The notes under the pieces: generated by a model
Told to the model about the DNA's origin: nothing
What the model saw: only the letters and a program-made list of their open reading frames with translations
Databases searched by the model: none
Made by a program: the position numbers and the translations under genes
Part shown: one piece after another, positions 19,053-46,422 of the stretch
Layout of the letters: each line of letters opens with the position of its first letter
Numbering within the stretch: position 1 is the stretch's first letter
NCBI GenBank assembly: GCA_013041745.1
Contig: JABDRN010000061.1
Coordinates: 2,975-66,974, forward strand
DNA length: 64,000 nucleotides
From: Gammaproteobacteria bacterium
Lineage (GTDB): Bacteria; Pseudomonadota; Gammaproteobacteria; SZUA-229
Direction of reading: 5' to 3'

Positions 19053-19108
19053 TATGCTAACTCCAGTTAAAAAGTGAGAATATTTTGCGTAAGAATTGTG
19101 AAGCTCAG

Positions 19109-19137: not shown

Positions 19138-19204
19138 GAAAATCACTATTGATTAGCTTTAATATAAATGTGGTCTCCATGTATGAAGCAGAGGCGGGAA
19201 GGCT

Positions 19205-20509: not shown

Positions 20510-20519
20510 CTATTCGTAT

Positions 20520-21206: not shown

Positions 21207-21224
21207 TGCCTATAATGGAAAGGC

Positions 21225-21944: not shown

Positions 21945-21987
21945 AAAAAAACCTCTTTGCTTAGTTTAGAGTTACTGGTCGGCTCAT

Positions 21988-22818: not shown

Positions 22819-22846
22819 GATCGTATCTATTTGTTAGTTATCTGTA

Positions 22847-24526: not shown

Positions 24527-26721
24527 AGTCCGCTGTACCTCTGACGTAATCGTTGACGAATTATTTCTGCAAGTGTATTAAATACGAAGGTGAACAGGAA
24601 CAGGATTAACGCAGCCAGGAACAGGACTCGATAGTGGGTACTGAACACTTCTGCTTCCGGAACCTCTACCGCGAGGTTCGCTGCCAGTGTGCGCATGCCC
24701 TGGAATATGCTCATGTCCATCAATGGCGTGTTACCTGTTGCCATCAATACGATCATGGTCTCACCGACGGCGCGGCCAAAGCCCATCATGACCGCTGAGA
24801 ATATGCCGGGACTGGCAGCAGGCAGTACTACGCTTGTCATCGTCTGCCAGCGTGTTGCGCCCAGGGCAAGTGAGCCACGAACCAGGTGCTGTGGCACACT
24901 GAATAAAGCATCTTCTGCGATCGAAAATATGGTCGGGATGACAGCAAAACCCATGATCAGGCCGACAACGAGGGCATTTCTCTGGTCATAGTTCAGGCCC
25001 CATTCGTTACTCATGTAAGTACGCAGGTCACCTTCGAAAAAGATTGACTCTATCGGTGCGCTTAAGGACATGGAAATCCAGATCAAAAGCATCACCACGG
25101 GAATCAACAATGCTGCTTCCCAGCCCTCGAAGATAGATTTATTTGGCATGAATCCCCATAGCCAAGCGCACAGTATAAATCCGACCGGCAACACTAATAA
25201 TAGTGTGAATATACCAGCAAGGTGTGTTTCTACATATGGAGCCAGCCATAATCCAGCAAGGAAACCGAGGATCACAGTCGGCAGGGCTTCCATGATTTCG
25301 ATCGACGGTTTTACTGTCTGGCGCATGCGCGGCGCCATGAACTGTGCGGTAAACATCGCACCTAGAATCGCGATAGGAACAGCGAATAGCATGGCATAGA
25401 ATGCAGCCTTGATGGTGCCGAAAGAAAGAGGCATCAAGCTGTACTTCGGTTCAAACTCATTGGTTGAAGCAGATGATTGCCAGATATAATCAGGCTCGTC
25501 ATATCCCTCGTACCAGATCTTGCCCCATAACACGTCCCAGGAAACCTCAGGATACTCATTATGTACCTCATAAAGCCGTATCTGGTTGTTGCTGTCAGAG
25601 ACTATAAGGTTTTGTGCACGGGCAGACCATGCCATCTGATCGACTAGTGTGTCAGCAGTATTGATGCTTGCCAGGGTTCTTTGAGAGGTTGAATAATATA
25701 TCGTGATATCGCCTTGCGTGTCGGCAACGGCAAAACCTTTTCTCTGCTGCTCGGTGGCGATGCTGGTGACCGCTTCAGAATTCTTATGAAAATTTCGAAT
25801 GTAGGTTAATTCTCTACCGCCATCTTTTCGAACCGACATCCACTGCTGTACCTCGCCGTTGGCCATGCCGACCATCAATGAAGAGCCACCGAGCAGGAGC
25901 TTCAAGCGGGTGATCTCATGCTCGAAGTGATATTCAGTCCTGTTGTTTTCGAAGCCTTCATCATCCAGTGAAAAGTCTTCCAGTTTGCCGCCAGCAATAG
26001 CGGCATACAGATGGTCCAGTCCGGGTGTCAGTACGATCGAAGATATCTCATGCTCGAAAGCCTGTTCAGACCTCGATTCAAGTTCGATAGTGATGTCTTC
26101 GCTGATAAAAGACTGCTCACGAAGGTAACGGGTAAAGACCAGTCGGTTATCACTTGTTGTGGCGGCAATGCCTACGATGTCATCGCTGAGCTGGATAGCG
26201 ATATTTGTAAGCGCTTCCCCGGACTCATCGAGTGTCAGCAGGTCTTTGCCCAGTGGGTATTCCAGTCTCGGTGTCAGGGTGCGGATATCGTCAGGATAGC
26301 TTAGATCGAACTTATAGCGTATCGCCATTACAGAACCGTCGGTGAGACCGAGTACCACGAGGTCCAGGTTGGCGGCAACACTGCTTATCGGCGCAGGCAG
26401 ATCGAAATCTTCATCGAGAATAATACTCGCTGTAGCCGTATCGAAAAAGATCGCATGACCTTTGTCGGTGAAGCGGACGCCGATAGTTCCCTGTTCTTCC
26501 AGGCCGAGATGCAGTGTTTTGCCTTCAGCAGGGGCGCTGTATGTCGTACTCTCATGTATCTCGGCCGAGCCGAACATCGGTACTACAACATACAATAAGT
26601 AGAAGAAAATCAGAAGGATGGCAACGATTACACTGATTCCACCCGAGGCTACAAAGTACCTTGCCAGGCGATCTTTCAGGGCTCGCTGGTTGTACCGTTT
26701 CTGTAATGACTGATCTTTCAT
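24523..26721 (-). CDS. pstC: phosphate ABC transporter permease PstC (long form)
   Basis: 732 aa with a large periplasmic N-terminal region followed by the permease core (RGSLALGATRWQTMTSVVLP). There is a 4-nt overlap with pstA. Confidence 0.9.
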   Translation of the reverse strand: MKDQSLQKRYNQRALKDRLARYFVASGGISVIVAILLIFFYLLYVVVPMFGSAEIHESTTYSAPAEGKTLHLGLEEQGTIGVRFTDKGHAIFFDTATASIILDEDFDLPAPISSVAANLDLVVLGLTDGSVMAIRYKFDLSYPDDIRTLTPRLEYPLGKDLLTLDESGEALTNIAIQLSDDIVGIAATTSDNRLVFTRYLREQSFISEDITIELESRSEQAFEHEISSIVLTPGLDHLYAAIAGGKLEDFSLDDEGFENNRTEYHFEHEITRLKLLLGGSSLMVGMANGEVQQWMSVRKDGGRELTYIRNFHKNSEAVTSIATEQQRKGFAVADTQGDITIYYSTSQRTLASINTADTLVDQMAWSARAQNLIVSDSNNQIRLYEVHNEYPEVSWDVLWGKIWYEGYDEPDYIWQSSASTNEFEPKYSLMPLSFGTIKAAFYAMLFAVPIAILGAMFTAQFMAPRMRQTVKPSIEIMEALPTVILGFLAGLWLAPYVETHLAGIFTLLLVLPVGFILCAWLWGFMPNKSIFEGWEAALLIPVVMLLIWISMSLSAPIESIFFEGDLRTYMSNEWGLNYDQRNALVVGLIMGFAVIPTIFSIAEDALFSVPQHLVRGSLALGATRWQTMTSVVLPAASPGIFSAVMMGFGRAVGETMIVLMATGNTPLMDMSIFQGMRTLAANLAVEVPEAEVFSTHYRVLFLAALILFLFTFVFNTLAEIIRQRLRQRYSGL

Positions 26722-35027: not shown

Positions 35028-35474
35028 TCAGTTGTCCATCAGCACACGCTCATCATATTCTGTTTCGAAGAATAGCTTGTGTTTTGCTTCCTCTTTGGCA
35101 AGGCCTTCTAACACTTCTTTGAGGTGGCTTTCCGGTACTTTAGCGGCCATGTCAGAGTAGAGCTTATGGGCAGCACGTTCTTTTTTCATGGCGATGATCA
35201 GTGCGTCCTGGTAGGTGATGTTATCGCTTGCCTCGACTTCCACCAGATAGTCCGAGATCTTCAGGTCCAGTACTTCCTGCTCGGGTGAGAGTTCGTGCTC
35301 GCCGGCCTTGACGTCGATCAGGATTTTCTTATGGCGTTTTTCTTCTTTAGAAAAATCCAGCAGTATCTTTTTCATGCCGGCTGTCTCGGCGCGTTGTGCA
35401 ACGTCTTCGTAAAAATCAGCTGCCTGTTGTTCCTGATCTATCGCGTAGTCCAGTATTTCATCAACGGTATTCAT
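35028..35474 (-). CDS. rubrerythrin/ferritin-like diiron four-helix-bundle protein
   Basis: Two ExxH motifs (EEKRH, EEAKH) with paired upstream Glu residues. There is no rubredoxin domain. It lies 31 nt downstream of the preceding gene. Confidence 0.6.
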   Translation of the reverse strand: MNTVDEILDYAIDQEQQAADFYEDVAQRAETAGMKKILLDFSKEEKRHKKILIDVKAGEHELSPEQEVLDLKISDYLVEVEASDNITYQDALIIAMKKERAAHKLYSDMAAKVPESHLKEVLEGLAKEEAKHKLFFETEYDERVLMDN

Positions 35475-35505: not shown

Positions 35506-37299
35506 CTATTTCTCTTCATATGCCGCGGGATTCAGATAACGGTCGATACCGCGTGCCGCATGGTGGCCATCTTCGATGGCGCTGATCGCATCAGCCGTGC
35601 TGTTGGCAAAATCACCGCCGACAAACACCTTTTCCAGCGTCGTGTGCTGGTATTCGCCCGGGGTAAATTTCCCCCATTCGATGGCAAATTCCTCATGCAT
35701 CTCTTTTGAGATGTAATCGAGATTACTGCCCTGACCGATCGCTGATATTATGCTGTCATATGTATCCGTGTGCATACGATCTTCCTGCAGCACCGGCCGC
35801 GGTCTGCCGCCTTTGGGGTCATCGACCATCTCGGCTTCTCCCCAGCGGATAGCGACCTGTTGCTCGCTGTCCGCACTCACTATCTCGACCGGTATCGCCT
35901 GCTGTACGATGCGGCAGCCTTCTTCCTGTGATTCATGGATCTCTTCTTCATCGGCCGGCATCTCACTGATGCGGCGGCGATACAGTATAGTGACTTCTGC
36001 ATCGAAACGACGTGATACACGTGCGGCATCCATGGCGACGTTACCACCGCCGATGACGGCTACTTTTTTACCTATGCCCGGGTCACGGCCATTAGCGACA
36101 TCAGCGAGTACCTGCAGACCGGATAAGACGCGTGGATGGTCTTCACCGTGAATGCGCATACTCGATGGCACCGATAGACCAGTAGACATGAATACCGCAT
36201 CATAGTTCTCCAGCAGCTGTTCAAATTTTATATCCTTGCCGATAGCGGTATTGTATTTGATTTCGACACCAAGTGAGACGATATAGTCGATATCCTTGTC
36301 CAGGTCGTTATCGGGCAGGCGATAACTCGGTACGCCATAGCGCAACATGCCGCCGGCAGATTCCTGTGCTTCGAATACGGTGACAGCATAACCTTTCTTA
36401 CGCAGGTAGTAGGCGGCACTCATGCCGCCGGGACCGGCACCGATGACAGCGATCTTTTTACCGTTTTCCGTTATCGTGTCAGCGAGGATACGCTGGTAGT
36501 CACTGGCGTCCACCTGGTCGACGATGAGACGTTTCAGCCAGCGAATGGCGACCGGCTCACCGAGTATGCCGACCGGGCATACCGATTCGCAGCGGCGAGT
36601 ACAGATCCGCCCGCAGGTCGCCGGGAAGGGGTTGGTGCGGTACATCAGCTGCAGGCCTTTTTCGTAGTTGCCGTCACGGATGCTGTGAATATAATCCGGT
36701 ACATCCATATGTGCCGGACAGGTAGCGACACAGATGCCGCATTCGACACAGCGGTCGGCTTCCTTTTTGGCCTGTTCTTCGCTGTAGCCTTTGACGACTT
36801 CTTCGAATGAGCTCACGCTTTCATTAGCAGGCAGCATCTCCATCTCGATGCGTTTGGGCGGATACAGGTGATAACCTTCAGCACGGCGATAACCATTTTC
36901 ATTGTCCTGCCAGGGTTTATCATCAACGCCGGCGGTGAAATGAAATACGGTCGGGTCTTCACTGATCCAGGCGTATTCGTTGCTCATGCGCAGTGAGGCA
37001 GCGGTACAGATGTCGACACATAATCCACACCAGCAGCAGCGGCCATAATCAAAACGCGGGCGCAGTCCGCTGTCGCCTTCACGACCCAGGTATTCTTCGA
37101 CCGCCACCATGTCGATGGCGTGGTTCTGGCAGATCTCGTGACAGCTGCCGCAGCCGACGCAGGTATCGGCGATGTTGATATGAAAACCGCGGTAAGCCGG
37201 TGCGCCAGGACGATCGATCGTTGGCCTTATCGAGGTGTATGGTTTTTCGAAGGCACGCTGCCAGACGAAGAAAGGTGAGAGCAGGTCTTTCAGGTTCAT
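35506..37299 (-). CDS. fusion of a NuoI/MbxN-like 2x[4Fe-4S] ferredoxin domain and a GltD/SudA-type NAD(P)H-dependent FAD oxidoreductase
   Basis: Residues about 40-115 carry CVGCGSCHEIC and CCWCGLCVDIC (NuoI-type). They are followed by RCVECGICVATCP...CGRICTRRCESVCP, IAVIGAGPGGMSAA (FAD) and VAVIGGGNVAMDAA (NADPH), as in glutamate synthase small-subunit-like proteins. Confidence 0.8.
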   Translation of the reverse strand: MNLKDLLSPFFVWQRAFEKPYTSIRPTIDRPGAPAYRGFHINIADTCVGCGSCHEICQNHAIDMVAVEEYLGREGDSGLRPRFDYGRCCWCGLCVDICTAASLRMSNEYAWISEDPTVFHFTAGVDDKPWQDNENGYRRAEGYHLYPPKRIEMEMLPANESVSSFEEVVKGYSEEQAKKEADRCVECGICVATCPAHMDVPDYIHSIRDGNYEKGLQLMYRTNPFPATCGRICTRRCESVCPVGILGEPVAIRWLKRLIVDQVDASDYQRILADTITENGKKIAVIGAGPGGMSAAYYLRKKGYAVTVFEAQESAGGMLRYGVPSYRLPDNDLDKDIDYIVSLGVEIKYNTAIGKDIKFEQLLENYDAVFMSTGLSVPSSMRIHGEDHPRVLSGLQVLADVANGRDPGIGKKVAVIGGGNVAMDAARVSRRFDAEVTILYRRRISEMPADEEEIHESQEEGCRIVQQAIPVEIVSADSEQQVAIRWGEAEMVDDPKGGRPRPVLQEDRMHTDTYDSIISAIGQGSNLDYISKEMHEEFAIEWGKFTPGEYQHTTLEKVFVGGDFANSTADAISAIEDGHHAARGIDRYLNPAAYEEK

Positions 37300-37313: not shown

Positions 37314-38513
37314 CTACCTCTCGATCTCTGGCGGGTAAGTATGCAGCGATACCATCATGCCTGCGATATCAGCGATATTGTTGCCGACTGCGAGGCGCTC
37401 CATCACGGCGATGGCATGCGTATAACTCGGTCCGCGTACATGCACACGACGTACGAGTTCCGAACCATCGGTGACCATATAGTAACCATATTCACCACGG
37501 GTACACTCGGCTTTGACATAAGTTTCACCGGCAGGTACTTTCCAGTGTAATACATTGGGCATATCGGCCTGGAAGGCGCCATCCATCGGCATACGGTCTA
37601 GGCACTGGCGAATCAGGCTGATGCATTGCCTTGTTTCCTGTAGACGCAGGTAGGCACGTTCATAAGCATCTGAATCTGTACCGGTGACGATATCGAAGTC
37701 CAGTTGATCGTAGGCCAGATAAGGTTCATCTTTACGCAGGTCGCGTTTGACGCCACAGGCGCGTGCGTTAGGGCCGACGATACCGTAGGGATCGATCATT
37801 TCAGGCGGGATAATGGCGAGGCCTTTCGAGCGTGCTTTGAAAACGGTATTGTTAAACATCACACGTTCGATCTGATCGAGCAGTTTCTCAGCACCGTCCA
37901 TGATCTCTCGGGCACGACCCTCGAAACCATCGGGCAGGCCGGCACGTACGCCGCCGGGTACTATGTACATGTGGTAGATGCGGGCACCGGTCATTTCTTC
38001 GAACAGGTCGAGTACGTAGTCGCGATAGGCCAGTGTCCAGTTAGCGACGGTGTACTGGCCGAAGGCGCCGCCCTGGCCGCCGATCCACATCAGGAAACTG
38101 GCGAGGCGCATCATCTCGAGGTTCATGGTGCGCAGCCAGGTGGCACGCTCTGGTATCTCGATACCGCTGATTTCTTCTACCGCATGCGAGTACAGATATT
38201 CGTTGAATGTCGGTTCGGGTACCGCGATACGGCACACCACGGTAAAGTTCTGGATGAAGCTGCGGCGTTCCATCAGTTTTTCGAAACCGCGGTGCAGGTA
38301 GCCGACATGGGTCTTGCAGTCGATGATGGTGTCGCCGTCGAGCGTCAGCTCCAGTGACATGTTGCCGGTGATGCCCGGGTGCTGCGGTCCCTGCCACAGT
38401 TTGACGTATTTTCCTGAAGCCAGGTCGACAGGTTCGGGCTGGGCAAAATCCAGCGAGGCGGAGTGACCTGTTGAAATGGGGCTGCTGGTGGTACGGCCAA
38501 ATGGCAGTTTCAT
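37314..38513 (-). CDS. NuoD / group-4 hydrogenase large-subunit homologue lacking NiFe ligands
   Basis: GPQHPG..., HVGYLHRGFEKL, RIYHMYIVPGGVR and VHVRGPSY are NuoD/MbhL-like blocks. The N-terminal site reads VVCRIAVPE and the C-terminus reads HTYPPEIER instead of the Cys motifs. Confidence 0.8.
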   Translation of the reverse strand: MKLPFGRTTSSPISTGHSASLDFAQPEPVDLASGKYVKLWQGPQHPGITGNMSLELTLDGDTIIDCKTHVGYLHRGFEKLMERRSFIQNFTVVCRIAVPEPTFNEYLYSHAVEEISGIEIPERATWLRTMNLEMMRLASFLMWIGGQGGAFGQYTVANWTLAYRDYVLDLFEEMTGARIYHMYIVPGGVRAGLPDGFEGRAREIMDGAEKLLDQIERVMFNNTVFKARSKGLAIIPPEMIDPYGIVGPNARACGVKRDLRKDEPYLAYDQLDFDIVTGTDSDAYERAYLRLQETRQCISLIRQCLDRMPMDGAFQADMPNVLHWKVPAGETYVKAECTRGEYGYYMVTDGSELVRRVHVRGPSYTHAIAVMERLAVGNNIADIAGMMVSLHTYPPEIER

Positions 38514-39052
38514 TTCTCGTCCCCCCCGCGGTTTGGATACAGCTCTACTTTCATGTGGTCACGCGGCTCTTCGCTGTGCCGGCCTTCACGGTGGCCGAAA
38601 CGTTGCTCGCTGAATTCCTTGGTATCGAACTCGCGGCGCATCGGCGGTATATCGTCCCAGCCTTCCAGGCAGAAGTCTTCCTCGAGACGCGGACTGCCGG
38701 GGAAATTGATGCCGTACATCTCACGCAGTTCACGCTGGTAGGTCCATGCCTGTGCCCACAGCGTATGGATGGAGACCATGTCTTCATTCTCGCGGCTGAT
38801 ATCGACATGTACGCCCAGCGAGAGTTTTTTATCGTAGTTGTGCAGCATGTAGACCAGGGTGAAGATGCCGTCTTCGATATAGTCGATGCAGGTCATGAAA
38901 TTGAGGTGCGTGTAACCTTCACGGTCGCGCAGTTCACGGATCAGTGTCTCGGCGCTGTCTTTTTTGACCCTGAACGTCGTCAGCGCAGGTTTGCGCACGG
39001 TGATGTCATCGACACCAAAGTCACGCTGCAGTCTTTCCATCAAATCATTCAT
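38510..39052 (-). CDS. NuoC (30 kDa subunit)-like protein
   Basis: 180 aa; ...TCIDYIEDG...VYMLHN...IHTLWAQAWTYQRELREMYGINFPGSP is typical of the NuoC/MbhK family. There is a 4-nt overlap with the NuoD-like gene. Confidence 0.8.
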   Translation of the reverse strand: MNDLMERLQRDFGVDDITVRKPALTTFRVKKDSAETLIRELRDREGYTHLNFMTCIDYIEDGIFTLVYMLHNYDKKLSLGVHVDISRENEDMVSIHTLWAQAWTYQRELREMYGINFPGSPRLEEDFCLEGWDDIPPMRREFDTKEFSEQRFGHREGRHSEEPRDHMKVELYPNRGGDEK

Positions 39053-39098: not shown

Positions 39099-39731
39099 TT
39101 ACCAGTTATAGTCGGGCATATCCCAGTTCTTGATGACCTTCTTCTGGTTGGCCTTGTACCAGTCAAAGTTTTCTACATAACGGTTGGCGCCATCACATTC
39201 ACCCGCCTTGATCTTCTTCTGCAATGCCATGATGCTTGCAACCAGTGCTTCCGGGCGAGGCATACAACCAGTTGCGTAAAGATCGACCGGGATATACTGG
39301 TCGAACTGGTTGATGGTGTTGTAGCTGTCGAAATACATGCCGCCATTGATCGGGCAGATGCCGAGGCAGATGACGAACTTGGGTCCCTGCATCTGTTCAT
39401 AGCTACGGATGATGCGCTTCAGGGTTTTTACCGAGGCATAGCCGCCGATAATGAATACCGATGACTGTCTCGGGGTCGGCCGTCCGGCAACGCCGAAACG
39501 GTTGGCATCGAAGCGGGCCGTCATCAGTGGTCGCAGTTCGATGGCGCCGCAGCCGGTACCGAAGGCAAGGATCCATAAGGAATTGGCTCTTGCCCAGTTC
39601 GCAAAATCTTCTACCGCTTTAATAGGGTAAGGTTCATAGGCTCTTGGGCGAGCATTACTGAACAGCAACTGTTCCTCTTCCGTTAGACCAGAATTTTCCA
39701 GTGTGTCATCAGTGTTGAGACTATTTTTCAT
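39099..39731 (-). CDS. NuoB / hydrogenase small-subunit-like [4Fe-4S] protein
   Basis: SLWILAFGTGCGAIE, PRQSSVFIIGG, FVICLGICPINGGMY and VDLYATGCMPRPEAL are NuoB-family blocks. Confidence 0.85.
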   Translation of the reverse strand: MKNSLNTDDTLENSGLTEEEQLLFSNARPRAYEPYPIKAVEDFANWARANSLWILAFGTGCGAIELRPLMTARFDANRFGVAGRPTPRQSSVFIIGGYASVKTLKRIIRSYEQMQGPKFVICLGICPINGGMYFDSYNTINQFDQYIPVDLYATGCMPRPEALVASIMALQKKIKAGECDGANRYVENFDWYKANQKKVIKNWDMPDYNW

Positions 39732-39743: not shown

Positions 39744-40682
39744 TTAAGCAGTCAGCAGCATCTGTGCGTATATTATCGACATCACCCCGATAAGGGTCGG
39801 GATTTTAAAGAAGAAGCGAATCGCCTGATCGACCCTGAAGCGCGGGAAGGCAACACCGACGATGATCGCGACCATATAGATCAGGAAGGTTTTTATCATC
39901 AGTTCGCCCCAGCCGGTGGCTCCGCCGAAGAACAAGTTCATAAACAGTATCAGCTTGGTAGCACCGAACAGCGCACGGTTGGTCTGCAGTAGTGATAGAT
40001 AGGCGCTGTGGAATTCTGTCGGTGGACCGATAGGGATCTCCTGCGGCGCCAGGAAAATATCAAACGGTGAATAGCCAGTCATGCCGAGTAATGCCAGCAT
40101 CGCGGCCAGCGTGGCCACCCAGTTGGTGATCACTGTCCAGTTCTGCCAGCCACCTTGCTGGGCAGCGACGATCTCGGTGAGCGACAGAGTGTCGTACTGG
40201 ATGACGATGGAGATTACCGCCAGTGCAAACGGTACTTCATAGGCGGTCATCTGCGACAGGCCGCGGGCGATACCGATGGCGCTATAGGGGTGTCCGCTTT
40301 CACCGGCGCCCAGCGCCATACCCAGCTGGCCGAAAAACATGAAATAGATCACCAGGAACAGGTCACCGGCGGTGCTGAAATTGGAGAACATCTCATTGCC
40401 GTAGATAACCGGTATGAAAGCCAGTGTACCTATGCCGCCGGCGATACGAAAAACCGGGCCGAGGTAGAACATGATGCCGTGGCTGATAGCGGTACGTTTG
40501 AAGAAGTTCTTCAGAATATTAATGAACGGCTGTGAGTAGGGGATGCCGATACGGCCCTGGACCTTGGCGATGATACGCTCGATCAATGCCCCGACGAAAA
40601 GCCCGTAGATGGTTACTATCAATAAAGTAAGAGAAAAATAGCCGGCTTTGGACAGCCATTCGTTCATGCTATCGAAGATCAC
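39744..40682 (-). CDS. NuoH / MbhM-like membrane subunit
   Basis: 312 aa, polytopic; ERIIAKVQGRIGIPY and SPFDIFLAPQEI correspond to conserved NuoH loops. Confidence 0.8.
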   Translation of the reverse strand: MIFDSMNEWLSKAGYFSLTLLIVTIYGLFVGALIERIIAKVQGRIGIPYSQPFINILKNFFKRTAISHGIMFYLGPVFRIAGGIGTLAFIPVIYGNEMFSNFSTAGDLFLVIYFMFFGQLGMALGAGESGHPYSAIGIARGLSQMTAYEVPFALAVISIVIQYDTLSLTEIVAAQQGGWQNWTVITNWVATLAAMLALLGMTGYSPFDIFLAPQEIPIGPPTEFHSAYLSLLQTNRALFGATKLILFMNLFFGGATGWGELMIKTFLIYMVAIIVGVAFPRFRVDQAIRFFFKIPTLIGVMSIIYAQMLLTA

Positions 40683-43600
40683 AGCGCGAGTCCTCCATTT
40701 AACAGGAACATGGCAACAAAATACATGACAACGAATAGTGCATAGGTTTGACCGTTACCGTTATAGAAAATGCGCAGTGAAGAAGCCGTCGTGTGGCTCC
40801 ATTCGACTATAGTGTTCCAGAATGCGGTCGCCCTCGGTCTGACCAGGAAGCCGATAGCGCGGTCGTAATGCGCAAAAAAGTTATAGGCATAATGCGTTTC
40901 TTCAGGACGGCGTGGACGTTCAGCCGCGAACACGATATTGAACTGTTCGACTTTCTGGATCTTCAAGGTCAGTGAGATCAGCAGCAGCAGTATCAGCGGC
41001 ACCATCCAGACACCGCCGACCACGCCCATGATCATCGGTGCATTCCAGTAGCCGAAGTTTGTCACCATGGCGGTACCTTCCCACACCAGGGTATTAGCGA
41101 TCCACGGATCGATGGCGGCTGACAGCGGATCAAGCAGCAGTTTCGGATAGGCCGAGACCACCATGATGCAGGCGATCATCACACCCTGCGGGATTAGCAG
41201 GATGGCCGGGGCCTCGCGTAACTCGTGATGTTCGAGTTTGCGCTGACCGAGGAATACCGTCTGCAACAGGCGGAACATATAGAGGAATGCGATCGCGCTG
41301 GAGAAGAACGCCAGTGCCGCGATCCAGTACCAGCCCTTGTCCATCAGCGCGTTGAACATCATCCACTTACCGCCATAACCGGTCAGTGGTGGTACCCCGG
41401 ACATGGCGATGATCGCGATCATGGTAAAGGTGAAAGTGAAAGGCATGTTCTTGATCAGGCCGCCCATCTTATACATCAGGCGCTGGTTGGTGCGCAGGAT
41501 GATGCCAGCGGCCGATAGCAGCAAGATACCTTTGAACAGGAAGTGGTTGACCGTCATATACATCGCAGAGACCCAGCCGAGGTGGCTCATCAGTGCGACG
41601 CCGGTGACGATATAACCCAGCTGTCCCATGCTGGAGTAGGCGAGCAGGCGTTTCAGATCTTCCTGGAACACGGCCATCAGTGCACCGAAGGTGGCGGTGA
41701 GGATGCCTATCCAGCCGAGCACATAGGCCGGATCGAGGCCGATATCAGAACGTACACCGAGCTGGGCGGCGATGATGACCAGGCCGAAGACGCCAGCCTT
41801 GCTGACCACTGAAGAAAGCAGCGCGGTAAAGTCATCATCCGCTTCAGCATAGGCATCGGGCAACCAGATGTGAAAACCGAAGCCGCCCATCTTGATGATG
41901 AAACCAGCGGCCAGCAGGCTGAATATCATGGTCATCGACTCACCGCTATTACCAAGGCTGGATAGCAGCAGGCTGCCGGTCGCACCGTATGCGACGGCAA
42001 AGCCTGCGAAGATGAGATAGGCTGAACCGAGTGAGAACAGCAGGTAGCTCAGTGCTGGTTTCGCACCATCACGCCCGAGTGTAATCAGTAGATAAGAGCT
42101 CAGTGTCATCAGTTCCCAGCTGAAGAAAAATTCCAGCGAAGATTGCGCACGCAGCAGGGTCGCCAGTGACAGTAGCAGTACGGCGAGCAGCGGGTAGAAA
42201 CCTTTACGGTCATCTTTGCGGTACAGCGCCGCGATACTGACCAGCAGTCCGCCGCCGATCAGAAGGTAACTGAACAGACTGTTGATGCCGTCGAGGTCTT
42301 TTGTCAGCAGATAGCCGCCGATTGCTACCGCAACCAGCATCGGCAGGTTCTTGTAGCGACCGTGCACACCATCGATCAGCCAGAGTGCAAAGCCGGCGAC
42401 CAGCGGCAGATATAATTCGGGACTGGCGACCTGCATGACTGCTGCCATGACGTAACTGGTGGCAAACAATAAAAGTACTGCGATGGCGACCGGTAGCGGC
42501 TGCCAGAAACTAACGGGTATCTCGGCCTGCTCATCATCAGCTACTGATTGCTGTGCATAGCTGAACCAGCGGAACAGGTAAGCTGCCTCCAGTAATGAAC
42601 CGAGCAGGATAAGGCTGATCCAGCCAAACATATCGTTGCTGGCAAGCAGCATTACCAGCTCCCATTTCGCCCAGAAACCGGGAAATGGCGGCAAGCCGAC
42701 AAGTGCTGTCATCATGATGCCGAGCAGCAATAACATGCCACGGCGCTTGCTGATAACCGACCAGCCACGGATACTGCTGCTTTTGACCAGTCCTGCCAGC
42801 CAGAACAGCCCGGCCTTGGCGAACAGGTGATTAACAAAAAGGCCACCGACGATGAGATACATCTGGGACTGTATGTCTACTTGTGAATCGAGTTGTGCCA
42901 GTAATGCCATCGCCAGTGTCAGCAGCCCAATCTGGCCAATGGATGAATAACCCAGCAGGCGCTTTGTATTGTCCTGTTTCAGACCGATGATGTTGGAAAA
43001 CAGGAAAGTGAGGCCGCCGATGAACGCGATGCTATGCAGGAAATCACCCGCCAGAGGTAACAGTTTATAGACGGCAAAGAACATGCCTGCCGAAACGCCG
43101 ACCGAGATCAGCGAGGCGATACCCGTAGACGCCGTTTCGTAGACATCAAGCCCCCAGCCATTGGCAGGGTAAGGTTTAAGCTCGATGAGCAGGCCGGTGA
43201 GCACGAAAAGTGTTGCGATAAAGCCGATCGGACCGCTGATCAGTTCCTGGTTGGCGATGATGTCATCGATGTTTAATGTACCTGTCTGGTAGTAGATGAA
43301 TATGGTGCCGAGCAGGAAGAATGCGGATGCGATCGAGGTCGCGACGATGTATTTGAAACCTGCGGCCAGTACACTGCCGGAACGCTCCATGCCGATCAGC
43401 GCATAGGTTGCTATCGAAGTGATCTCGATAAAGATAAACAGGTTGAACAGGTCGCGGGTCATCACCATGCCATTGATGCCCATCACCAGTATCAGGTAGA
43501 GCAGCAGGGCAGAAGCGTGTTCTTTTAATCGAGGCAGGTAATGCCATGCACCCAGCAGAGCTGCGGTATTGACCGCGAGTACGATACCGCCTTCGAGCAG

Positions 43601-43855
43601 GCCGAAGCGCAAGTTGATAGAAAACGGCGGCTTGATGCCCGCGGTCTCGATATCGATAGCAGTTGCACCATTGATGATTCCAAACAGGTTGAAGCCGGCG
43701 ATCCCTACCATACAGGCCAGGGCCAGCAGGAACACCAGGATTGCAGAACCGCGATGTGCCCGGTCGAATAATGGGATCAGGAAGCCTGCACCCAGTGCCA
43801 GTACATAGATGCCTAAAGGATGCAGCAGTAGGTCTGTTATGGTCGCTGTTACCAT
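40679..43855 (-). CDS. fused tandem MrpD/NuoL-N-like antiporter subunits
   Basis: About 1058 aa with two successive proton-antiporter modules, roughly residues 1-480 and 490-1000. The ATG at 43855 overlaps the MrpC stop (ATGGTAA). The track start at 43870 is a GTG. Confidence 0.8.
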   Translation of the reverse strand: MVTATITDLLLHPLGIYVLALGAGFLIPLFDRAHRGSAILVFLLALACMVGIAGFNLFGIINGATAIDIETAGIKPPFSINLRFGLLEGGIVLAVNTAALLGAWHYLPRLKEHASALLLYLILVMGINGMVMTRDLFNLFIFIEITSIATYALIGMERSGSVLAAGFKYIVATSIASAFFLLGTIFIYYQTGTLNIDDIIANQELISGPIGFIATLFVLTGLLIELKPYPANGWGLDVYETASTGIASLISVGVSAGMFFAVYKLLPLAGDFLHSIAFIGGLTFLFSNIIGLKQDNTKRLLGYSSIGQIGLLTLAMALLAQLDSQVDIQSQMYLIVGGLFVNHLFAKAGLFWLAGLVKSSSIRGWSVISKRRGMLLLLGIMMTALVGLPPFPGFWAKWELVMLLASNDMFGWISLILLGSLLEAAYLFRWFSYAQQSVADDEQAEIPVSFWQPLPVAIAVLLLFATSYVMAAVMQVASPELYLPLVAGFALWLIDGVHGRYKNLPMLVAVAIGGYLLTKDLDGINSLFSYLLIGGGLLVSIAALYRKDDRKGFYPLLAVLLLSLATLLRAQSSLEFFFSWELMTLSSYLLITLGRDGAKPALSYLLFSLGSAYLIFAGFAVAYGATGSLLLSSLGNSGESMTMIFSLLAAGFIIKMGGFGFHIWLPDAYAEADDDFTALLSSVVSKAGVFGLVIIAAQLGVRSDIGLDPAYVLGWIGILTATFGALMAVFQEDLKRLLAYSSMGQLGYIVTGVALMSHLGWVSAMYMTVNHFLFKGILLLSAAGIILRTNQRLMYKMGGLIKNMPFTFTFTMIAIIAMSGVPPLTGYGGKWMMFNALMDKGWYWIAALAFFSSAIAFLYMFRLLQTVFLGQRKLEHHELREAPAILLIPQGVMIACIMVVSAYPKLLLDPLSAAIDPWIANTLVWEGTAMVTNFGYWNAPMIMGVVGGVWMVPLILLLLISLTLKIQKVEQFNIVFAAERPRRPEETHYAYNFFAHYDRAIGFLVRPRATAFWNTIVEWSHTTASSLRIFYNGNGQTYALFVVMYFVAMFLLNGGLAL

Positions 43856-44229
43856 TTCGACTCCGTGCACTCATCGATATTCAGCGTGTTACGTGCTTTA
43901 AATATACGCACCGCAAACGCTAGCATGACTGCGGTTACACCGAGACCGATGACGATTGCGGTGAGTACCAGCGCGGAAGGCACCGGGTCGACAACCCTGT
44001 TAACGGCATCGGCGATCGGCACCGCATCATTGATGATCGGAGCTGTACCGCCGGTGACATAGCCGATAGAGACCATGACCATGTGGATGCCGGTATCCAT
44101 CAATGAAAAACCGATGATCATACGGATTATGTTGCGCTGCGTCAGCATGCCCCACATGCCGATCAAAATCAGGCCAAGGCCGCTGCACAGCACGATGAGT
44201 GATATCGGGATGTCAGTGAGCATGTTCAT
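43849..44229 (-). CDS. MrpC/MnhC (NuoK-like) subunit
   Basis: 126 aa with three TM segments; GMLTQRNIIRMIIGFSLMDTG is typical of MnhC. Confidence 0.8.
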   Translation of the reverse strand: MNMLTDIPISLIVLCSGLGLILIGMWGMLTQRNIIRMIIGFSLMDTGIHMVMVSIGYVTGGTAPIINDAVPIADAVNRVVDPVPSALVLTAIVIGLGVTAVMLAFAVRIFKARNTLNIDECTESKW

Positions 44230-44969
44230 ACCGGGCCGGTGTCCTCCTTGCGGAAACGGTCGAGTACCGCACTGAGTTCAAATCCTACCTTGAGGCCGAC
44301 GAAGAGGTAGATCAATGGTATCGCTCCGGCACTGAACAGGCTGCCGTAAGTGCCGAGGTCCATGATACGGTTGTCGAGGAAACCGCCCGCGAGAAAGACA
44401 CCGAGTACGCCGACGACGACATAGCTGAAACCGGACATGGATTCGGTGATGGCGATCATCAGGCGACTGATATGTGATTCAGGCAGTGCGAGCAGCAGGA
44501 ACATGGTGCCGGAAGCGATGATCGCACCGCCCTGAAAACCACCGCCGGGTGACAGGTGGCCGTTCATGAATACGTATACACCGAACAGGACTACCATCGG
44601 CAGCAGCAGTTCGGTCGCTGTTTCGACGATCTCGCTGGCGGGTTTGTGTACGCCCGCTGTCTCTTCTGCACGGTCTCCCTGTTCCAGGCCTTTGTCATCA
44701 TCCTGGTTGCGTCGGGTGCGGCGTAGCAGCAAGCCGACACCGGCAGCTGAGATGAATAGTACGGTCACCTCACCCAGTGTATCCAGACCACGGTAGGTGA
44801 CGACGACCGCGGTGACCAGGTTGGGCGCACCCAGTTCCTGCGGACCTTTGTCAGCATAGTAGTGGCCGAGCTTGGACAGCGTCGTGTTCTCGGTATAGTT
44901 GGCGACGAGGTTGAAAAAGATCATCGCCATAAGAGCCAGCATTGCAAAAATGAAGATCCGTTTGATCAT
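44226..44969 (-). CDS. MrpB/MnhB-domain membrane subunit
   Basis: NLVTAVVVTYRGLDTLGEVTVLF is the MnhB motif. It is followed by a charged loop and extra TM segments. Confidence 0.7.
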   Translation of the reverse strand: MIKRIFIFAMLALMAMIFFNLVANYTENTTLSKLGHYYADKGPQELGAPNLVTAVVVTYRGLDTLGEVTVLFISAAGVGLLLRRTRRNQDDDKGLEQGDRAEETAGVHKPASEIVETATELLLPMVVLFGVYVFMNGHLSPGGGFQGGAIIASGTMFLLLALPESHISRLMIAITESMSGFSYVVVGVLGVFLAGGFLDNRIMDLGTYGSLFSAGAIPLIYLFVGLKVGFELSAVLDRFRKEDTGPV

Positions 44970-45349
44970 TTTGCCGGTACCCCGTTGCTTTCTTCTGCCG
45001 TATCCTTATCGGTTTCATTCTCCTCGGCTCTGCCAAGCTGATCGATGACCGTAGTTTCGGTTTCAAAAATGCCGATAGAGTGTGCTGCGCGTGCCAGTGC
45101 ATGTGAGGACACCGGATTGGTCAGCATGACGAAGAATATCAGGATGATCAGTTTCAAGGTCCAGGCCGGGTGTAGAAAAGCCAGTCCGATAAGGACCATG
45201 ATAGTTCCCAGCGTCGTCGCTTTGGTACCGGTCTGGATTCGGTTATAGGTATCTGGCATACGCAATACACCGAGCCCGGCCGAGAACAGGAACAGAGAGC
45301 CGATGATGAGAAAAAGGTTGCCGATGATTTCGCTGAGAAGATGGGTCAT
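44966..45349 (-). CDS. MrpG/MnhG subunit
   Basis: IGSLFLFSAGLGVLRMPDTYNRIQTGTKATTLG is the MnhG signature. Confidence 0.8.
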   Translation of the reverse strand: MTHLLSEIIGNLFLIIGSLFLFSAGLGVLRMPDTYNRIQTGTKATTLGTIMVLIGLAFLHPAWTLKLIILIFFVMLTNPVSSHALARAAHSIGIFETETTVIDQLGRAEENETDKDTAEESNGVPAK

Positions 45350-45612
45350 TCGTCATCCTCGCTTTCAAGCTTTTGCGTCTTGCGGATGGCGTAGAGAAAA
45401 ATCATGGTGGTGAGACCAGAACCGATAGACGCCTCGGTCATCGCCACATCAGGTGCCGCCAGCACGACATAGACCACGGATGCGAACAGGCTGGCGAGAC
45501 CGGCACTGACCACTGCGCTGACCATATTATTCAGCATCACGGCGAGCAGTCCACTGATGAGGATGCCTGCGCAAAGCACGACAGTAAGTAATGTGATGAC
45601 GAGTGATGACAT
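45346..45612 (-). CDS. MbhD-like (DUF4040) small membrane subunit
   Basis: 88 aa counted from the ATG at 45612. The track's longer start at 45696 would overlap mrpF by 77 nt. It has three TM segments with APDVAMTEASIGSGLTT. Confidence 0.55.
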   Translation of the reverse strand: MSSLVITLLTVVLCAGILISGLLAVMLNNMVSAVVSAGLASLFASVVYVVLAAPDVAMTEASIGSGLTTMIFLYAIRKTQKLESEDDE

Positions 45613-45619
45613 GAGCAGA

Positions 45620-45895
45620 TCAGATTCCTTTTTCCAGGTAACGGGCGACAGCGAGTACTCCGAGAAAACTGAGCAAACCGTAAACCAGCGCGACATCGAG
45701 GTAGATGAAGCGCTCAGCCTGGTGTGCCAGCAGTGCTATCAACGCGATCGTAACGATGGTCAACAGGTCGATCGCAACCACCCGGTCAACGGTATCGGGG
45801 CCGATCACCAGGCGAACGATACCGAACACGATGCTGAAAAATATCAGCACGGAAGAGATGATTATGGTTATTTCTGTCATTCCAAAATCAGTCAT
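45620..45895 (-). CDS. MrpF/MnhF subunit
   Basis: 91 aa; RLVIGPDTVDRVVAIDLL...YLDVALVYGLLSFLGVLAVARYLE. Confidence 0.75.
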   Translation of the reverse strand: MTDFGMTEITIIISSVLIFFSIVFGIVRLVIGPDTVDRVVAIDLLTIVTIALIALLAHQAERFIYLDVALVYGLLSFLGVLAVARYLEKGI

Positions 45896-45912: not shown

Positions 45913-46422
45913 TTATCCATATATCACCTTGAGGATTTTTTCGAAACGAGCGGAGATGGCCTCGGTTGCGGCAACCGGGTCAGTCGCAGCTATGTTTATC
46001 CAGTGGATGAACAGCGAGTCATCTTTGATATCAACGACCAGCGTGCCCGGTGTCAAGGTAATACTGTTGGCCAGAGCCAAGCGGCCCATAGGTGATTTAA
46101 GCTCGGTCTTGATCTCGACGATTCCCGGCCTGATATCGATGCGTGGTGAGAACACCAGACGCATGACGTTAAGATTAGCCTTTATCAGTTCGATGAAGAA
46201 TACAGCGAGGTACACCAGGTAATGATAGATAACGGTCGGTGACCAGCGGATCACACGGTACACCCTGGCGAAGGTGGAAAATGCCAGCGCGATAACAGCG
46301 CTGACTACGACACCTGTTATCACGGTATCTGAAGCTAGCGAGCCATTGGCTATCAGCCAGATGAGCAGCAGCGTCAACCAGAGGTTGATGAACTGTAATG
46401 GAATGTTCTTGGTACCCGGCAT
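45913..46422 (-). CDS. MrpE/MnhE subunit
   Basis: 169 aa; ELIKANLNVMRLVFSPRIDIRPGIV...LANSITLTPGTLVVD is typical of MnhE. Confidence 0.75.
   Translation of the reverse strand: MPGTKNIPLQFINLWLTLLLIWLIANGSLASDTVITGVVVSAVIALAFSTFARVYRVIRWSPTVIYHYLVYLAVFFIELIKANLNVMRLVFSPRIDIRPGIVEIKTELKSPMGRLALANSITLTPGTLVVDIKDDSLFIHWINIAATDPVAATEAISARFEKILKVIYG

What the first reader, a model, noticed from the sequence alone, without database searches (positions are those of the whole stretch)
35506..37299. NuoI/MbxN-type 2x[4Fe-4S] domain fused in frame to a GltD/SudA-type NAD(P)H:FAD oxidoreductase
Seen in sequence: a single 597-aa ORF carries two ferredoxin motifs in a NuoI-like N-terminal region of about 120 aa (CVGCGSCHEIC, CCWCGLCVDIC). 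Downstream come the two-cluster Fer4_20-like region (RCVECGICVATCP, CGRICTRRCESVCP) and the two Rossmann motifs (GAGPGG, GGGNVAMDAA) of glutamate-synthase small-subunit-like enzymes.

In known Mbh/Mbx/complex I systems the NuoI-like subunit is a stand-alone connector. The fusion hard-wires a pyridine-nucleotide site to the membrane-arm iron-sulfur chain. It would functionally replace the NuoEFG module or soluble ferredoxin.
Basis: partly seen in the sequence, partly recalled or inferred. Interest (0 to 1): 0.8.

Follow-up and report, generated by a model that had tools for sequence, protein, structure and literature searches.

The report
NAD(P)H flavoprotein fused to Mbx connector
The fused gene is real, but it is the usual last subunit of bacterial Mbx/MBS-type membrane complexes (Thermotoga maritima has the same one) and was noted in print in 2015, so this is a new member of a known, biochemically untested kind.

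Summary
Residues 1-112 are a NuoI/MbsN-type 2x[4Fe-4S] domain. A conserved linker follows, then an NfnB/GltD-type 2x[4Fe-4S] plus FAD plus NAD(P)H module. It is not a frameshift artefact. More than 120 near-identical clusters and a second clade about 40% identical, from independent assemblies, keep the same frame, the same linker length and all 16 cluster cysteines.

It is the last catalytic gene of a 13-gene Mrp-plus-NuoH/B/C/D operon that ends with a rubrerythrin-like gene. The NuoB- and NuoD-like subunits resemble Pyrococcus MBS (sulfane reductase) more than complex I or hydrogenase.

The same fusion closes the published 13-subunit MBX operon of Thermotoga maritima. It also occurs in other Thermotogae, Myxococcota, Spirochaetes, Hydrothermae/WOR-3 and Fusobacteriota. 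NCBIfam has a full-length model for it (PRK13984), and Degli Esposti (2015) described gltD-type Mbx-like operons ending in rubrerythrin. So the novelty premise fails, while the functional idea of a hard-wired NAD(P)H port is reasonable.

One new point: this gammaproteobacterial clade, in a sulfur oxidiser with aprA and sat, has a changed acceptor pocket. Its substrate and direction of electron flow are unknown.

The parts
45913..46422 (-). MnhE/MrpE-like subunit, first gene of the operon
   Evidence: Pfam MNHE 5.4e-39
45620..45895 (-). MrpF/PhaF-like small membrane subunit (91 aa)
   Evidence: Hydrophobic 91-aa ORF at the position where T. maritima has MrpF_PhaF. Not scanned against Pfam here.
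45346..45696 (-). MbhD-like subunit. The true start is probably near 45612, because the listed ORF overlaps MrpF by 77 nt.
   Evidence: Pfam MbhD 2.9e-18; overlap computed
44966..45349 (-). MnhG/MrpG-like subunit
   Evidence: Pfam PhaG_MnhG_YufB 9e-26
44226..44969 (-). MbhE plus MnhB-like subunit
   Evidence: Pfam MnhB 3.7e-22 and MbhE 1.6e-10
43849..44229 (-). NuoK/MrpC-like subunit
   Evidence: Pfam Oxidored_q2 2.5e-24
40679..43870 (-). Two antiporter-like (MrpD/NuoN-M, MbsH-H'-like) modules fused into one 1063-aa protein. T. maritima has them as separate genes of 466 and 626 aa.
   Evidence: Pfam Proton_antipo_M with 2 stretches, 6.8e-88; NCBIfam hits in both halves; T. maritima comparison
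39744..40682 (-). NuoH/MbsM-like membrane anchor
   Evidence: Pfam NADHdh 4.7e-48
39099..39731 (-). NuoB/MbsJ-like subunit carrying the proximal [4Fe-4S] cluster. It has Cys61, Cys126 and Cys156, which match MbsJ C28, C93 and C123. The MbsJ C25 position is Gly.
   Evidence: Best PDB match 6u8y_J at 212.6 bits, against 133 bits for NdhK; motif alignment
38510..39052 (-). NuoC/MbsK-like subunit
   Evidence: Pfam Complex1_30kDa 6.2e-24
37314..38513 (-). NuoD/MbsL-like subunit. All four NiFe cysteines are absent and the Nqo4 His38/Tyr87 positions are Thr/Val.
   Evidence: Best PDB match 6u8y_L at 317.6 bits, against Nqo4 228 and MbhL 148; motif alignment
36964..37299 (-). Fusion ORF, residues 1-112: NuoI/MbsN-type domain with two CxxCxxCxxxC motifs (C47/50/53/57 and C88/91/94/98)
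   Evidence: all eight Cys invariant in 88 sequences
36805..36963 (-). Fusion ORF, residues 113-165: linker. Confidence in the model is low for residues 110-135. Length is conserved and several residues are invariant or nearly so (R150, F165, P116, G136, L145, M153, S164).
36505..36804 (-). Fusion ORF, residues 166-265: Fer4_20 domain with two further [4Fe-4S] motifs (C184/187/190/194 and C229/233/237/241)
   Evidence: Pfam Fer4_20 6.7e-29; Cys invariant
35506..36504 (-). Fusion ORF, residues 266-597 plus stop codon: FAD and NAD(P)H Rossmann domains (GAGPGG 287-292, GGGNVAMD 417-424, LYRRR 439-443)
   Evidence: Pfam Pyr_redox_2 4.2e-26; PDB sequence matches to NfnB-type chains around 1e-82; Foldseek 5jca_L TM-score 0.87 on the target, rmsd 2.5 A
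35028..35474 (-). Rubrerythrin-like di-iron protein of 148 aa, with no Cys and no rubredoxin domain. It has two ExxH motifs (45-48 and 129-132) and lies 31 nt downstream of the fusion.
   Evidence: Pfam Rubrerythrin 4.9e-13; motifs; syntenic in gammaproteobacterial and two Myxococcota loci; fused to the C-terminus of the flavoprotein in about 750-aa homologues carrying PF02915

Best explanation
The ORF is the peripheral-arm terminal subunit of a bacterial Mbx/MBS-type, Mrp-derived ion-translocating oxidoreductase. Its N-terminal 112 residues take the place of MbsN/NuoI. [quoted passage not shown] In archaeal MBS this subunit accepts electrons from ferredoxin. Here the polypeptide continues into an NfnB/GltD-type module. 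The proposed electron path is NAD(P)H, then FAD, then two [4Fe-4S] clusters (Fer4_20), then two [4Fe-4S] clusters (NuoI-like), then the three-Cys proximal [4Fe-4S] cluster of the NuoB-like subunit, and finally an acceptor in the NuoB/NuoD/NuoH pocket. Turnover would be coupled to H+/Na+ movement through the Mrp-like arm. The rubrerythrin-like partner probably protects this exposed flavin and iron-sulfur module from O2 or H2O2. What is shown: the domain content, the conserved ligands, the conserved operon context across phyla, the MBS-type rather than complex-I-type or hydrogenase-type NuoB and NuoD, and the NfnB-like fold. What is inferred: that the protein docks, that the clusters lie within tunnelling distance, that NADPH is preferred (LYRRR motif), and what the acceptor is. 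The most likely acceptor is a sulfane or polysulfide species, by homology to MBS and because the host is a sulfur oxidiser. Because NAD(P)H and polysulfide have similar potentials, the reaction would be near equilibrium and easily reversible.
For: Domain architecture and a full-length match to NF010590/PRK13984. The N-terminal part is closest to MbsN, including the NuoI-specific leader. The C-terminal part matches NfnB/NfnI-L by sequence and by fold (AF2 pLDDT 84, pTM 0.81; Foldseek TM-score 0.87). All 16 cluster Cys are invariant in 88 sequences from two clades. No other NuoI-like gene is in the operon, whose genes overlap or are closely spaced. The whole operon is syntenic in 8 Gammaproteobacteria loci and 3 Myxococcota loci and in T. 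maritima and Thermotoga sp. RQ2. NuoB- and NuoD-like subunits score far higher against MbsJ and MbsL than against complex I or MBH, and the three MbsJ ligand Cys are conserved. MBS chemistry and cluster ligands come from PMC7684303 and PMC8165549. T. maritima mbx is induced by S0 (PMC9431562). A published reading treats the gltD-like subunit as the NAD(P) site (PMC4758237). aprA and sat in the window mark a sulfur-oxidising host.
Against: No member of this fused family has been characterised biochemically in the literature I could search. The T. maritima papers still assume ferredoxin as donor. The gammaproteobacterial clade has lost MbsL C85 and C385 and MbsJ C25, and two relatives have a complex-I-like tandem CC, so the acceptor may not be the MBS substrate. 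The quinone-site residues are also missing. The driving force from NAD(P)H to polysulfide is small (about 60 mV, from textbook potentials), which fits poorly with two pump modules working in the forward direction. Inter-domain geometry and docking were not measured. The model has low confidence in residues 18-27 and 110-135.
Confidence: 0.7

Rival explanations
1. Same complex, opposite physiological direction. The membrane arm uses the proton or sodium gradient to push electrons from a weak donor at the NuoB/NuoD pocket (sulfide, polysulfide, or a quinol) up to NADP+. The fusion subunit would then be the NADP+-reducing exit. This would give a sulfur-oxidising autotroph NADPH by reverse electron flow. 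A variant is Degli Esposti's scheme, in which ferredoxin is the donor and NAD(P)+ the acceptor.
For: The host carries aprA and sat, which mark a sulfur oxidiser. The LYRRR motif is shared with the NfnB-like domain of chain 9bov_A, whose homologues in classical NfnAB are reported to bind NADPH (recollection). Near-equal potentials make the reaction reversible (inference). The 2015 paper calls the gltD-like subunit 'the reduction site for NAD(P)+'. The clade has a remodelled acceptor pocket.
Against: No experimental data exist. The same fusion occurs in fermentative, sulfur-reducing Thermotogae, where mbx is induced by S0 and electron disposal is the need. A ferredoxin donor would need a docking site that the fused module probably covers (inference).
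Confidence: 0.18
2. The protein is a soluble enzyme in its own right, for example an NAD(P)H-dependent peroxide or oxygen reductase working with the adjacent rubrerythrin-like protein. Its N-terminal domain would be a generic ferredoxin domain, and it would not be a subunit of the membrane complex.
For: A rubrerythrin domain is fused to the C-terminus of the flavoprotein in homologues of about 750 aa. Many GltD-like proteins carry unrelated N-terminal ferredoxin domains, such as AegA and YgfT.
Against: The N-terminal part matches NuoI/MbsN through the family-specific leader that precedes the clusters, not only the Cys motifs. The operon would otherwise lack any NuoI/MbsN subunit. The position directly after NuoD is conserved in at least three phyla at 35-55% identity. 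T. maritima has the fusion but no rubrerythrin gene next to it.
Confidence: 0.07
3. The NfnB-like flavin bifurcates electrons. NADPH would reduce FAD, one electron would enter the iron-sulfur chain to the membrane arm and the other would go to a second acceptor.
For: The closest solved relatives are subunits of bifurcating enzymes: NfnI, NfnAB, NfnABC and StnABC.
Against: The operon has no NfnA/PyrK-like [2Fe-2S]/FAD partner or other second branch. GltD and DPD share the same fold and do not bifurcate. Both Fer4_20 clusters have four Cys ligands.
Confidence: 0.04
4. Assembly or frameshift artefact that joins two separate genes.
For: None found.
Against: The same frame, length and linker appear in hundreds of independent assemblies and in finished genomes of cultured species.
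Confidence: 0.01

Closest known systems
Thermotoga maritima 13-subunit MBX (mbxA and following genes; last gene P0313, 615 aa) and its Thermotogae orthologues
   Same: Same gene content overall: MnhE, MrpF, MnhG and MbhD, MbhE/MnhB, NuoK-like, antiporter-like modules, NuoH, NuoB, NuoC, NuoD, then the NuoI-GltD fusion. All 16 Cys are conserved and the linker length is conserved.
   Different: Identity is about 42-44%. The window fuses the two antiporter-like genes into one 1063-aa protein, swaps the order of MbhD and MnhG, and adds a rubrerythrin-like gene. It has lost the MbsJ C25 and MbsL C85/C385 equivalents and the His at the Nqo4-H38 position. It has LYRRR where Thermotogae have (S/C)LE(T/N) in the nucleotide-binding domain.
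Pyrococcus furiosus MBS (membrane-bound sulfane reductase, PDB 6U8Y)
   Same: The NuoD-, NuoB- and NuoI-like parts each have their best solved match in MbsL, MbsJ and MbsN. The three Cys ligands of the catalytic proximal cluster are conserved, the quinone-site residues are absent, and an Mrp-type membrane arm with two antiporter-like modules is present.
   Different: MbsN is a stand-alone 208-aa protein that takes electrons from ferredoxin. Here it is extended by a 480-aa NAD(P)H flavoprotein. The vestigial NiFe cysteines of MbsL are absent.
NfnB / NfnI-L / SudA / GltD small-subunit family
   Same: Fer4_20 with two 4-Cys motifs and the FAD and NAD(P)H Rossmann domains. Sequence E-values are around 1e-80 and the fold TM-score is 0.87.
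   Different: There is no NfnA/SudB or GltB partner gene. The protein carries an N-terminal NuoI-type domain and is encoded inside a membrane-complex operon.
Respiratory complex I (NuoA-N) with the NuoEFG N-module
   Same: The logic is the same: a pyridine-nucleotide flavoprotein feeds an iron-sulfur wire through NuoI and NuoB to a pocket at the NuoB/D/H interface, coupled to antiporter-like pumps.
   Different: The input module is unrelated (FAD with an NfnB fold, rather than FMN-containing NuoF with NuoE and NuoG). The quinone-binding His and Tyr are missing. The membrane arm is Mrp-type (MnhE/F/G/B) rather than NuoA/J/L/M/N.
NCBIfam NF010590 (PRK13984) 'putative oxidoreductase'
   Same: End-to-end alignment, residues 2-590 on model positions 7-607 of 611, E = 1e-204.
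   Different: The score of 681 bits is below the curated equivalog cut-off of 946, so the window protein is a divergent relative of the sequences that model was built on.

Membership tests
Bacterial Mbx-like operon with a gltD-type terminal subunit (Degli Esposti 2015; T. maritima MBX) | Complete Mrp-like module followed by NuoH, NuoB, NuoC and NuoD homologues in one operon | tested here: met
   Pfam and NCBIfam assignments for every gene. Same content as T. maritima loci L081/L082.
Bacterial Mbx-like operon with a gltD-type terminal subunit (Degli Esposti 2015; T. maritima MBX) | A gltD-related flavoprotein at the NuoI position, directly after NuoD | tested here: met
   The fusion ORF starts 14 nt after NuoD. 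Orthologous arrangement in gammaproteobacterial, Myxococcota and Thermotoga loci. Published description.
Bacterial Mbx-like operon with a gltD-type terminal subunit (Degli Esposti 2015; T. maritima MBX) | Operon often ends with rubrerythrin | tested here: met
   Rubrerythrin-like ORF at 35028-35474, syntenic in relatives.
Bacterial Mbx-like operon with a gltD-type terminal subunit (Degli Esposti 2015; T. maritima MBX) | NuoD homologue keeps vestigial NiFe-ligand cysteines | tested here: not met
   RIAVPEP and HTYPPEIER in the window, against RICVPEP and xCxPxIDR in T. maritima, Myxococcota and MbsL.
NCBIfam NF010590 / PRK13984 putative oxidoreductase (equivalog) | Whole-protein score at or above the curated cut-off of 946 bits | tested here: not met
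   681.2 bits, with full-length alignment 2-590 on 7-607 of 611.
MBS (membrane-bound sulfane reductase, P. furiosus type) | Proximal [4Fe-4S] cluster held by three Cys (MbsJ C28, C93, C123), leaving one free iron | tested here: inconclusive
   The three Cys are conserved and no tandem CC is present in the window protein. Extra Cys122 and Cys179 exist, two close relatives have CC, and coordination cannot be proven from sequence.
MBS (membrane-bound sulfane reductase, P. furiosus type) | Absence of the Nqo4 His38/Tyr87 quinone-site residues | tested here: met
   Thr and Val occupy those positions. The criterion comes from PMC7684303.
MBS (membrane-bound sulfane reductase, P. furiosus type) | Stand-alone MbsN that accepts electrons from ferredoxin | tested here: not met
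   The MbsN-like domain is fused to a 480-aa flavoprotein.
MBS (membrane-bound sulfane reductase, P. furiosus type) | Polysulfide or DMTS reductase activity coupled to ion translocation | not testable with these tools
   Needs biochemistry.
Respiratory complex I (NADH:quinone oxidoreductase) | NuoE/F/G N-module, quinone-site His and Tyr in NuoD, tandem Cys in NuoB | tested here: not met
   No NuoEFG in the operon. His38 is Thr, Tyr87 is Val, and NuoB has a single Cys in GTGCG.
Group 4 membrane-bound [NiFe] hydrogenase (Mbh/Ech) | Four NiFe-ligand cysteines in the large subunit | tested here: not met
   Both Cys positions retained in MbsL are Ala and Tyr here, and the other two are absent as in MbsL. 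The MbhL match is the weakest of the three reference complexes (148 bits).
NfnB / GltD / SudA small-subunit family | Fer4_20 with two [4Fe-4S] motifs plus FAD and NAD(P)H dinucleotide folds | tested here: met
   Pfam above cut-offs, PDB sequence matches, fold match, invariant Cys.
NfnB / GltD / SudA small-subunit family | A partner subunit (NfnA/SudB or GltB) encoded alongside | tested here: not met
   None among the annotated genes from 24.5 to 48.3 kb.
NuoI / MbsN subunit family | Two CxxCxxCxxxC motifs preceded by the family-specific N-terminal segment (…KP.T…YRGxH) | tested here: met
   Alignment to 6u8y_N runs from residue 6. NuoI models match 5-115 but below their full-length cut-offs (TIGR01971 69 against 113 bits).

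The most novel reading that the evidence does not exclude
The gammaproteobacterial clade is a functionally distinct offshoot of bacterial Mbx. It has lost the MBS-type vestigial cysteines, carries an NADPH-type LYRRR motif, sits in an aprA/sat sulfur oxidiser, and has close relatives that acquired a complex-I-like tandem Cys. It could be a gradient-driven NADP+ reductase that draws electrons from reduced sulfur or a quinol. That would be an unrecognised route to NADPH by reverse electron flow in chemolithotrophs, and possibly an evolutionary intermediate between MBS and complex I with an alternative N-module.
Probability: 0.15. Interest if true: 0.7.

Novelty: new member of a known kind. Interest (0 to 1): 0.33.

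Why it matters
Bacterial Mbx/MBS-type complexes are usually drawn with ferredoxin as the donor, by analogy with Pyrococcus. The conserved fusion argues that in bacteria they are wired to NAD(P)(H) instead. If so, energy and redox budgets proposed for Thermotoga and Mesotoga would need revising. It would also mean that a complex-I-like machine gained a pyridine-nucleotide port independently of NuoEFG. The fusion itself is not new, so this window mainly extends the family to uncultured sulfur-oxidising Gammaproteobacteria and shows that their acceptor pocket has diverged. The open question, which needs experiment, is what any member of this family reduces or oxidises.

Tried and rejected
1. Frameshift or assembly artefact: rejected on cross-assembly conservation. 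Reads were not available.
Only a fold comparison was possible.
3. Promoter and terminator scans at both operon ends: hits were no more frequent than in shuffled sequence, so they are uninformative.
4. Literature: nine searches found one paper that describes the gltD-type Mbx-like operon. PMC118040 (Andersson & Roger 2002, on GltD fusions) is not held. Schut et al. 2013 and Marreiros et al. 2013, which I recall as discussing bacterial Mbx/Ehr complexes, could not be consulted, so that recollection is unverified.
5. Complex I and hydrogenase identities for the NuoB/NuoD pair: rejected.
6. The genome-contig scan finds only loci that share six short peptide patterns with the query, so it under-samples distant fusions. 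This was compensated by the exhaustive HMMER search with the N-terminal domain and a second homologue search seeded with the Thermosipho protein.
Full report
OBSERVATION. The window has a single 597-aa ORF at 35506-37299 on the minus strand. Pfam places a 2x[4Fe-4S] domain at 46-99, Fer4_20 at 163-265 and Pyr_redox_2 at 282-578.

The N-terminal part is specifically NuoI-like, not a generic ferredoxin domain. NCBIfam NuoI models align from residue 5. The best solved relative is MbsN of the Pyrococcus furiosus MBS complex (6u8y_N, E = 1.6e-17). That alignment starts at residue 6 and covers the family-typical leader...KP.T...P...AP.YRGFH, ahead of the first cluster motif. The C-terminal 440 residues match NfnB-type chains at E values near 1e-82 to 1e-85.

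An AlphaFold2 model built on an 88-sequence alignment is confident overall (mean pLDDT 84.3, pTM 0.81). Confidence is low in residues 18-27 and 110-135. The model superposes on NfnI-L (5jca_L) with a TM-score of 0.87 relative to the target and an rmsd of 2.5 A.

IS THE FUSION REAL? Reads were not available, so I used independent assemblies instead. A homologue search returned 120 listed clusters at 78-94% identity, all about 600 aa with 99-100% query coverage, from NCBI, JGI, ENA and Logan. Those that carry a name are Gammaproteobacteria MAGs. tblastn with the 40-residue junction alone finds it in frame at 80-92% identity in eight genome loci. In alignment A1 all 16 cluster cysteines are invariant, and several linker residues are invariant or nearly so: R150, F165, P116, G136, L145, M153 and S164. 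The spacing from Cys98 to Cys184 is exactly 87 residues in every gammaproteobacterial sequence and 86-96 in a second clade only about 40% identical. A frameshift artefact is excluded for practical purposes.

CONTEXT. The ORF is the twelfth gene of a tightly packed minus-strand operon, with several 4-nt overlaps and gaps of 46 nt or less. The order is MnhE, an MrpF-like ORF, MbhD-like, MnhG, MbhE/MnhB, NuoK-like, one 1063-aa protein holding two antiporter-like modules, NuoH, NuoB, NuoC, NuoD, the fusion, and a 148-aa rubrerythrin-like protein. No separate NuoI-like gene is present.

The NuoD-like protein scores 318 bits against MbsL, 228 against Nqo4 of Thermus complex I and 148 against MbhL. 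The NuoB-like protein scores 213 bits against MbsJ and 133 against the best complex-I/NDH relative. The complex is therefore of the MBS/Mbx type.

In MBS the distal and medial clusters sit in MbsN. The proximal cluster in MbsJ is held by only three cysteines (C28, C93, C123), and its free iron is proposed to reduce polysulfide. MbsL C85 and C385 are vestiges of the NiFe site and are dispensable. Nqo4 His38 and Tyr87 are absent (PMC7684303 and PMC8165549). In the window the three MbsJ ligand cysteines are conserved (Cys61, 126, 156). The C25 position is Gly, the quinone-site positions are Thr and Val, and both vestigial MbsL cysteines are gone, replaced by Ala and Tyr.

HOW WIDESPREAD IS IT, AND IS IT KNOWN? 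Four lines of evidence say it is known.

(1) NCBIfam has a 611-position equivalog model, NF010590/PRK13984 'putative oxidoreductase'. It aligns with this protein end to end (E = 1e-204, 681 bits), below its cut-off of 946.

(2) An exhaustive HMMER search of 1.84 billion representatives with residues 1-165 alone found 958 proteins at E of 0.001 or better. Among the best 150, sixteen representatives (clustered at 50% identity) are 560-765 aa long and match from their own N-termini. Reading their sequences shows that twelve are true NuoI-GltD fusions. Named members come from Spirochaetaceae, Thermosipho melanesiensis and Candidatus Hydrothermae/WOR-3.

(3) A search seeded with the Thermosipho protein shows the fusion in cultured Thermotoga maritima MSB8, Thermosipho, Fervidobacterium, Petrotoga, Mesotoga and Tepiditoga, in Haliovirga abyssi and in an Anaerolineales MAG. 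Versions of about 750 aa, one of them named as Spirochaetales, carry an added C-terminal extension; seven of them, none carrying a taxon name, have a Pfam rubrerythrin (PF02915) hit there. In T. maritima and Thermotoga sp. RQ2 the 615-aa fusion is the last gene of MnhE-MrpF-MnhG-MbhD-MbhE/MnhB-NuoK-antiporter-antiporter-NuoH-NuoB-NuoC-NuoD. That is the '13-subunit MBX' reported to be induced by elemental sulfur (PMC9431562).

[quoted passage not shown] That matches the window's gene order.

In the fetched reference genomes the complete operon is syntenic in eight Gammaproteobacteria loci and, at 35-55% identity, in three Myxococcota loci.

MECHANISM. The best-supported reading is that the N-terminal domain docks where MbsN/NuoI docks, and that the fused NfnB/GltD-type module replaces soluble ferredoxin as the redox partner. 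This gives a wire from NAD(P)H through FAD, four [4Fe-4S] clusters in this polypeptide and the proximal cluster in the NuoB-like subunit, ending in a pocket formed with the NuoD- and NuoH-like subunits. Turnover would be coupled to ion movement in the Mrp-like arm.

The shown steps are domain identity, ligand conservation, operon conservation and the MBS-type partners. The inferred steps are docking, distances, nucleotide preference, acceptor and direction.

The nucleotide-binding domain reads LYRRR in the gammaproteobacterial clade, as in the NfnB-like domain of chain 9bov_A. Thermotogae-type proteins read (S/C)LE(T/N) there. From what I recall of NfnB and GltD, the Arg pair binds the 2'-phosphate, so NADPH may be preferred here and NADH in Thermotogae. 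This is an inference.

The rubrerythrin-like protein has two ExxH motifs and no Cys. It is sometimes fused to the flavoprotein, which argues for a direct functional link. The most plausible role is protection of the exposed flavin and iron-sulfur module against O2 or H2O2.

From textbook potentials (NAD(P)H about -320 mV, polysulfide/sulfide about -260 mV), NAD(P)H-driven sulfane reduction yields roughly 10-12 kJ per electron pair. That is similar to the 12 kJ quoted for MBH. The reaction would be near equilibrium and reversible. The window's organism carries aprA (TIGR02061, 915 bits, above cut-off) and sat, which marks a sulfur-oxidising gammaproteobacterium, and one relative is labelled Thiotrichaceae. 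Reverse operation, with gradient-driven NADP+ reduction, is therefore a serious rival.

WHAT IS DIFFERENT IN THIS WINDOW. The family splits into two pocket types. T. maritima and Myxococcota keep MbsJ C25 and C28, MbsL C85 and C385, and a His at the Nqo4-H38 position. The window's clade has lost all of these except the C28 equivalent. Two close relatives (L001, L002) read GTGCCS, the tandem-Cys signature of complex I NuoB. The window also fuses the two antiporter-like genes and swaps the order of MbhD and MnhG relative to Thermotoga. The acceptor of this clade therefore cannot be taken over from P. furiosus MBS.

VERDICT. The feature is a new, divergent member of a known and widely distributed kind of operon that has not been characterised biochemically. 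Interest is moderate to low for the fusion itself. The residual value is that the literature on Thermotoga and Mesotoga still assumes a ferredoxin donor, and that the gammaproteobacterial pocket variant is undescribed in what I could search.

Noticed in passing
L038:8729-11755 (+), Dehalococcoidales MAG CAYUWM010000026.1; likely also L014, L016, L042, L043, L056: A separate way of wiring a GltD-like module into a complex-I-type enzyme. One 1008-aa ORF holds NuoH (29-331), Fer4_20 (421-501), Pyr_redox_2 (516-814) and a C-terminal 2x[4Fe-4S] domain (897-948). It sits in a canonical nuoB-C-D-[this ORF]-J-K-L-M-N operon. The five other loci also show NuoH about 1.05 kb upstream of the GltD-like match.
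   Followed up: partly
L075:3899-12264 (Deltaproteobacteria MAG DAOVGN010000095.1); similar layout in L036: A nuo-like cluster in which a 654-aa GltD-like ORF (6282-8246) and an 859-aa ORF (8248-10827) lie between NuoCD and NuoH, where NuoE/F/G normally sit. A separate NuoI follows. These ORFs were not scanned for domains.
   Followed up: no
Proteins P0134, P0365, P0366, P0375, P0384, P0395, P0396 (about 750-770 aa): Triple fusion of a NuoI-like domain, a GltD-like module and a rubrerythrin domain (PF02915). None of these seven clusters carries a taxon name; a 748-aa relative without a PF02915 hit (P0368) is named Spirochaetales. This ties the window's downstream rubrerythrin-like gene to the flavoprotein.
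   Followed up: partly
Proteins P0266 (668 aa) and P0237 (564 aa): Other fusions of the same NuoI-like domain. P0266 joins NuoI-like, NuoB-like and NuoD-like parts in one chain. P0237 joins a NuoI-like domain to extra ferredoxin motifs and what looks by eye like an FrhB/F420-dehydrogenase-beta-like C-terminus.
   Followed up: no
L001 and L002, NuoB-like genes near 7615-8270: Close gammaproteobacterial relatives read GTGCCS where the window has GTGCG. This tandem Cys matches the cluster-N2 signature of complex I and stands in an otherwise MBS-type subunit.
   Followed up: partly
window 11090-13075 (-) and 15971-17161 (-): aprA (TIGR02061, 915 bits) and sat (TIGR00339, 388 bits), both above their cut-offs. 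They mark the APS pathway of a sulfur-oxidising gammaproteobacterium. A 316-aa ORF at 9926-10876 next to aprA has no NCBIfam hit.
   Followed up: partly
window 18063-26721 (-): Phosphate regulon block: pstS, phoR, phoB, phoU, pstB, pstA and a 732-aa PstC-like permease. The N-terminal part of that permease (residues about 220-390) gives weak WD40/beta-propeller hits. That is an unusual addition to a Pst permease.
   Followed up: no
window 40679-43870 (-): The two antiporter-like subunits (MbsH/H' equivalents) are fused into one 1063-aa protein. In T. maritima they are separate genes of 466 and 626 aa.
   Followed up: partly
window 45346-45895 (-): The MbhD-like ORF as listed overlaps the MrpF-like ORF by 77 nt, so its real start is probably an internal Met near 45612. 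The order of MbhD and MnhG is inverted relative to T. maritima and Myxococcota.
   Followed up: partly
window 54347-56533 (-), 56922-58397 (+), 59530-63973: A type III glutamine synthetase, a 491-aa ORF with no Pfam hit, and a transglutaminase-like gene next to a DUF2126 (putative amidoligase) gene.
   Followed up: no
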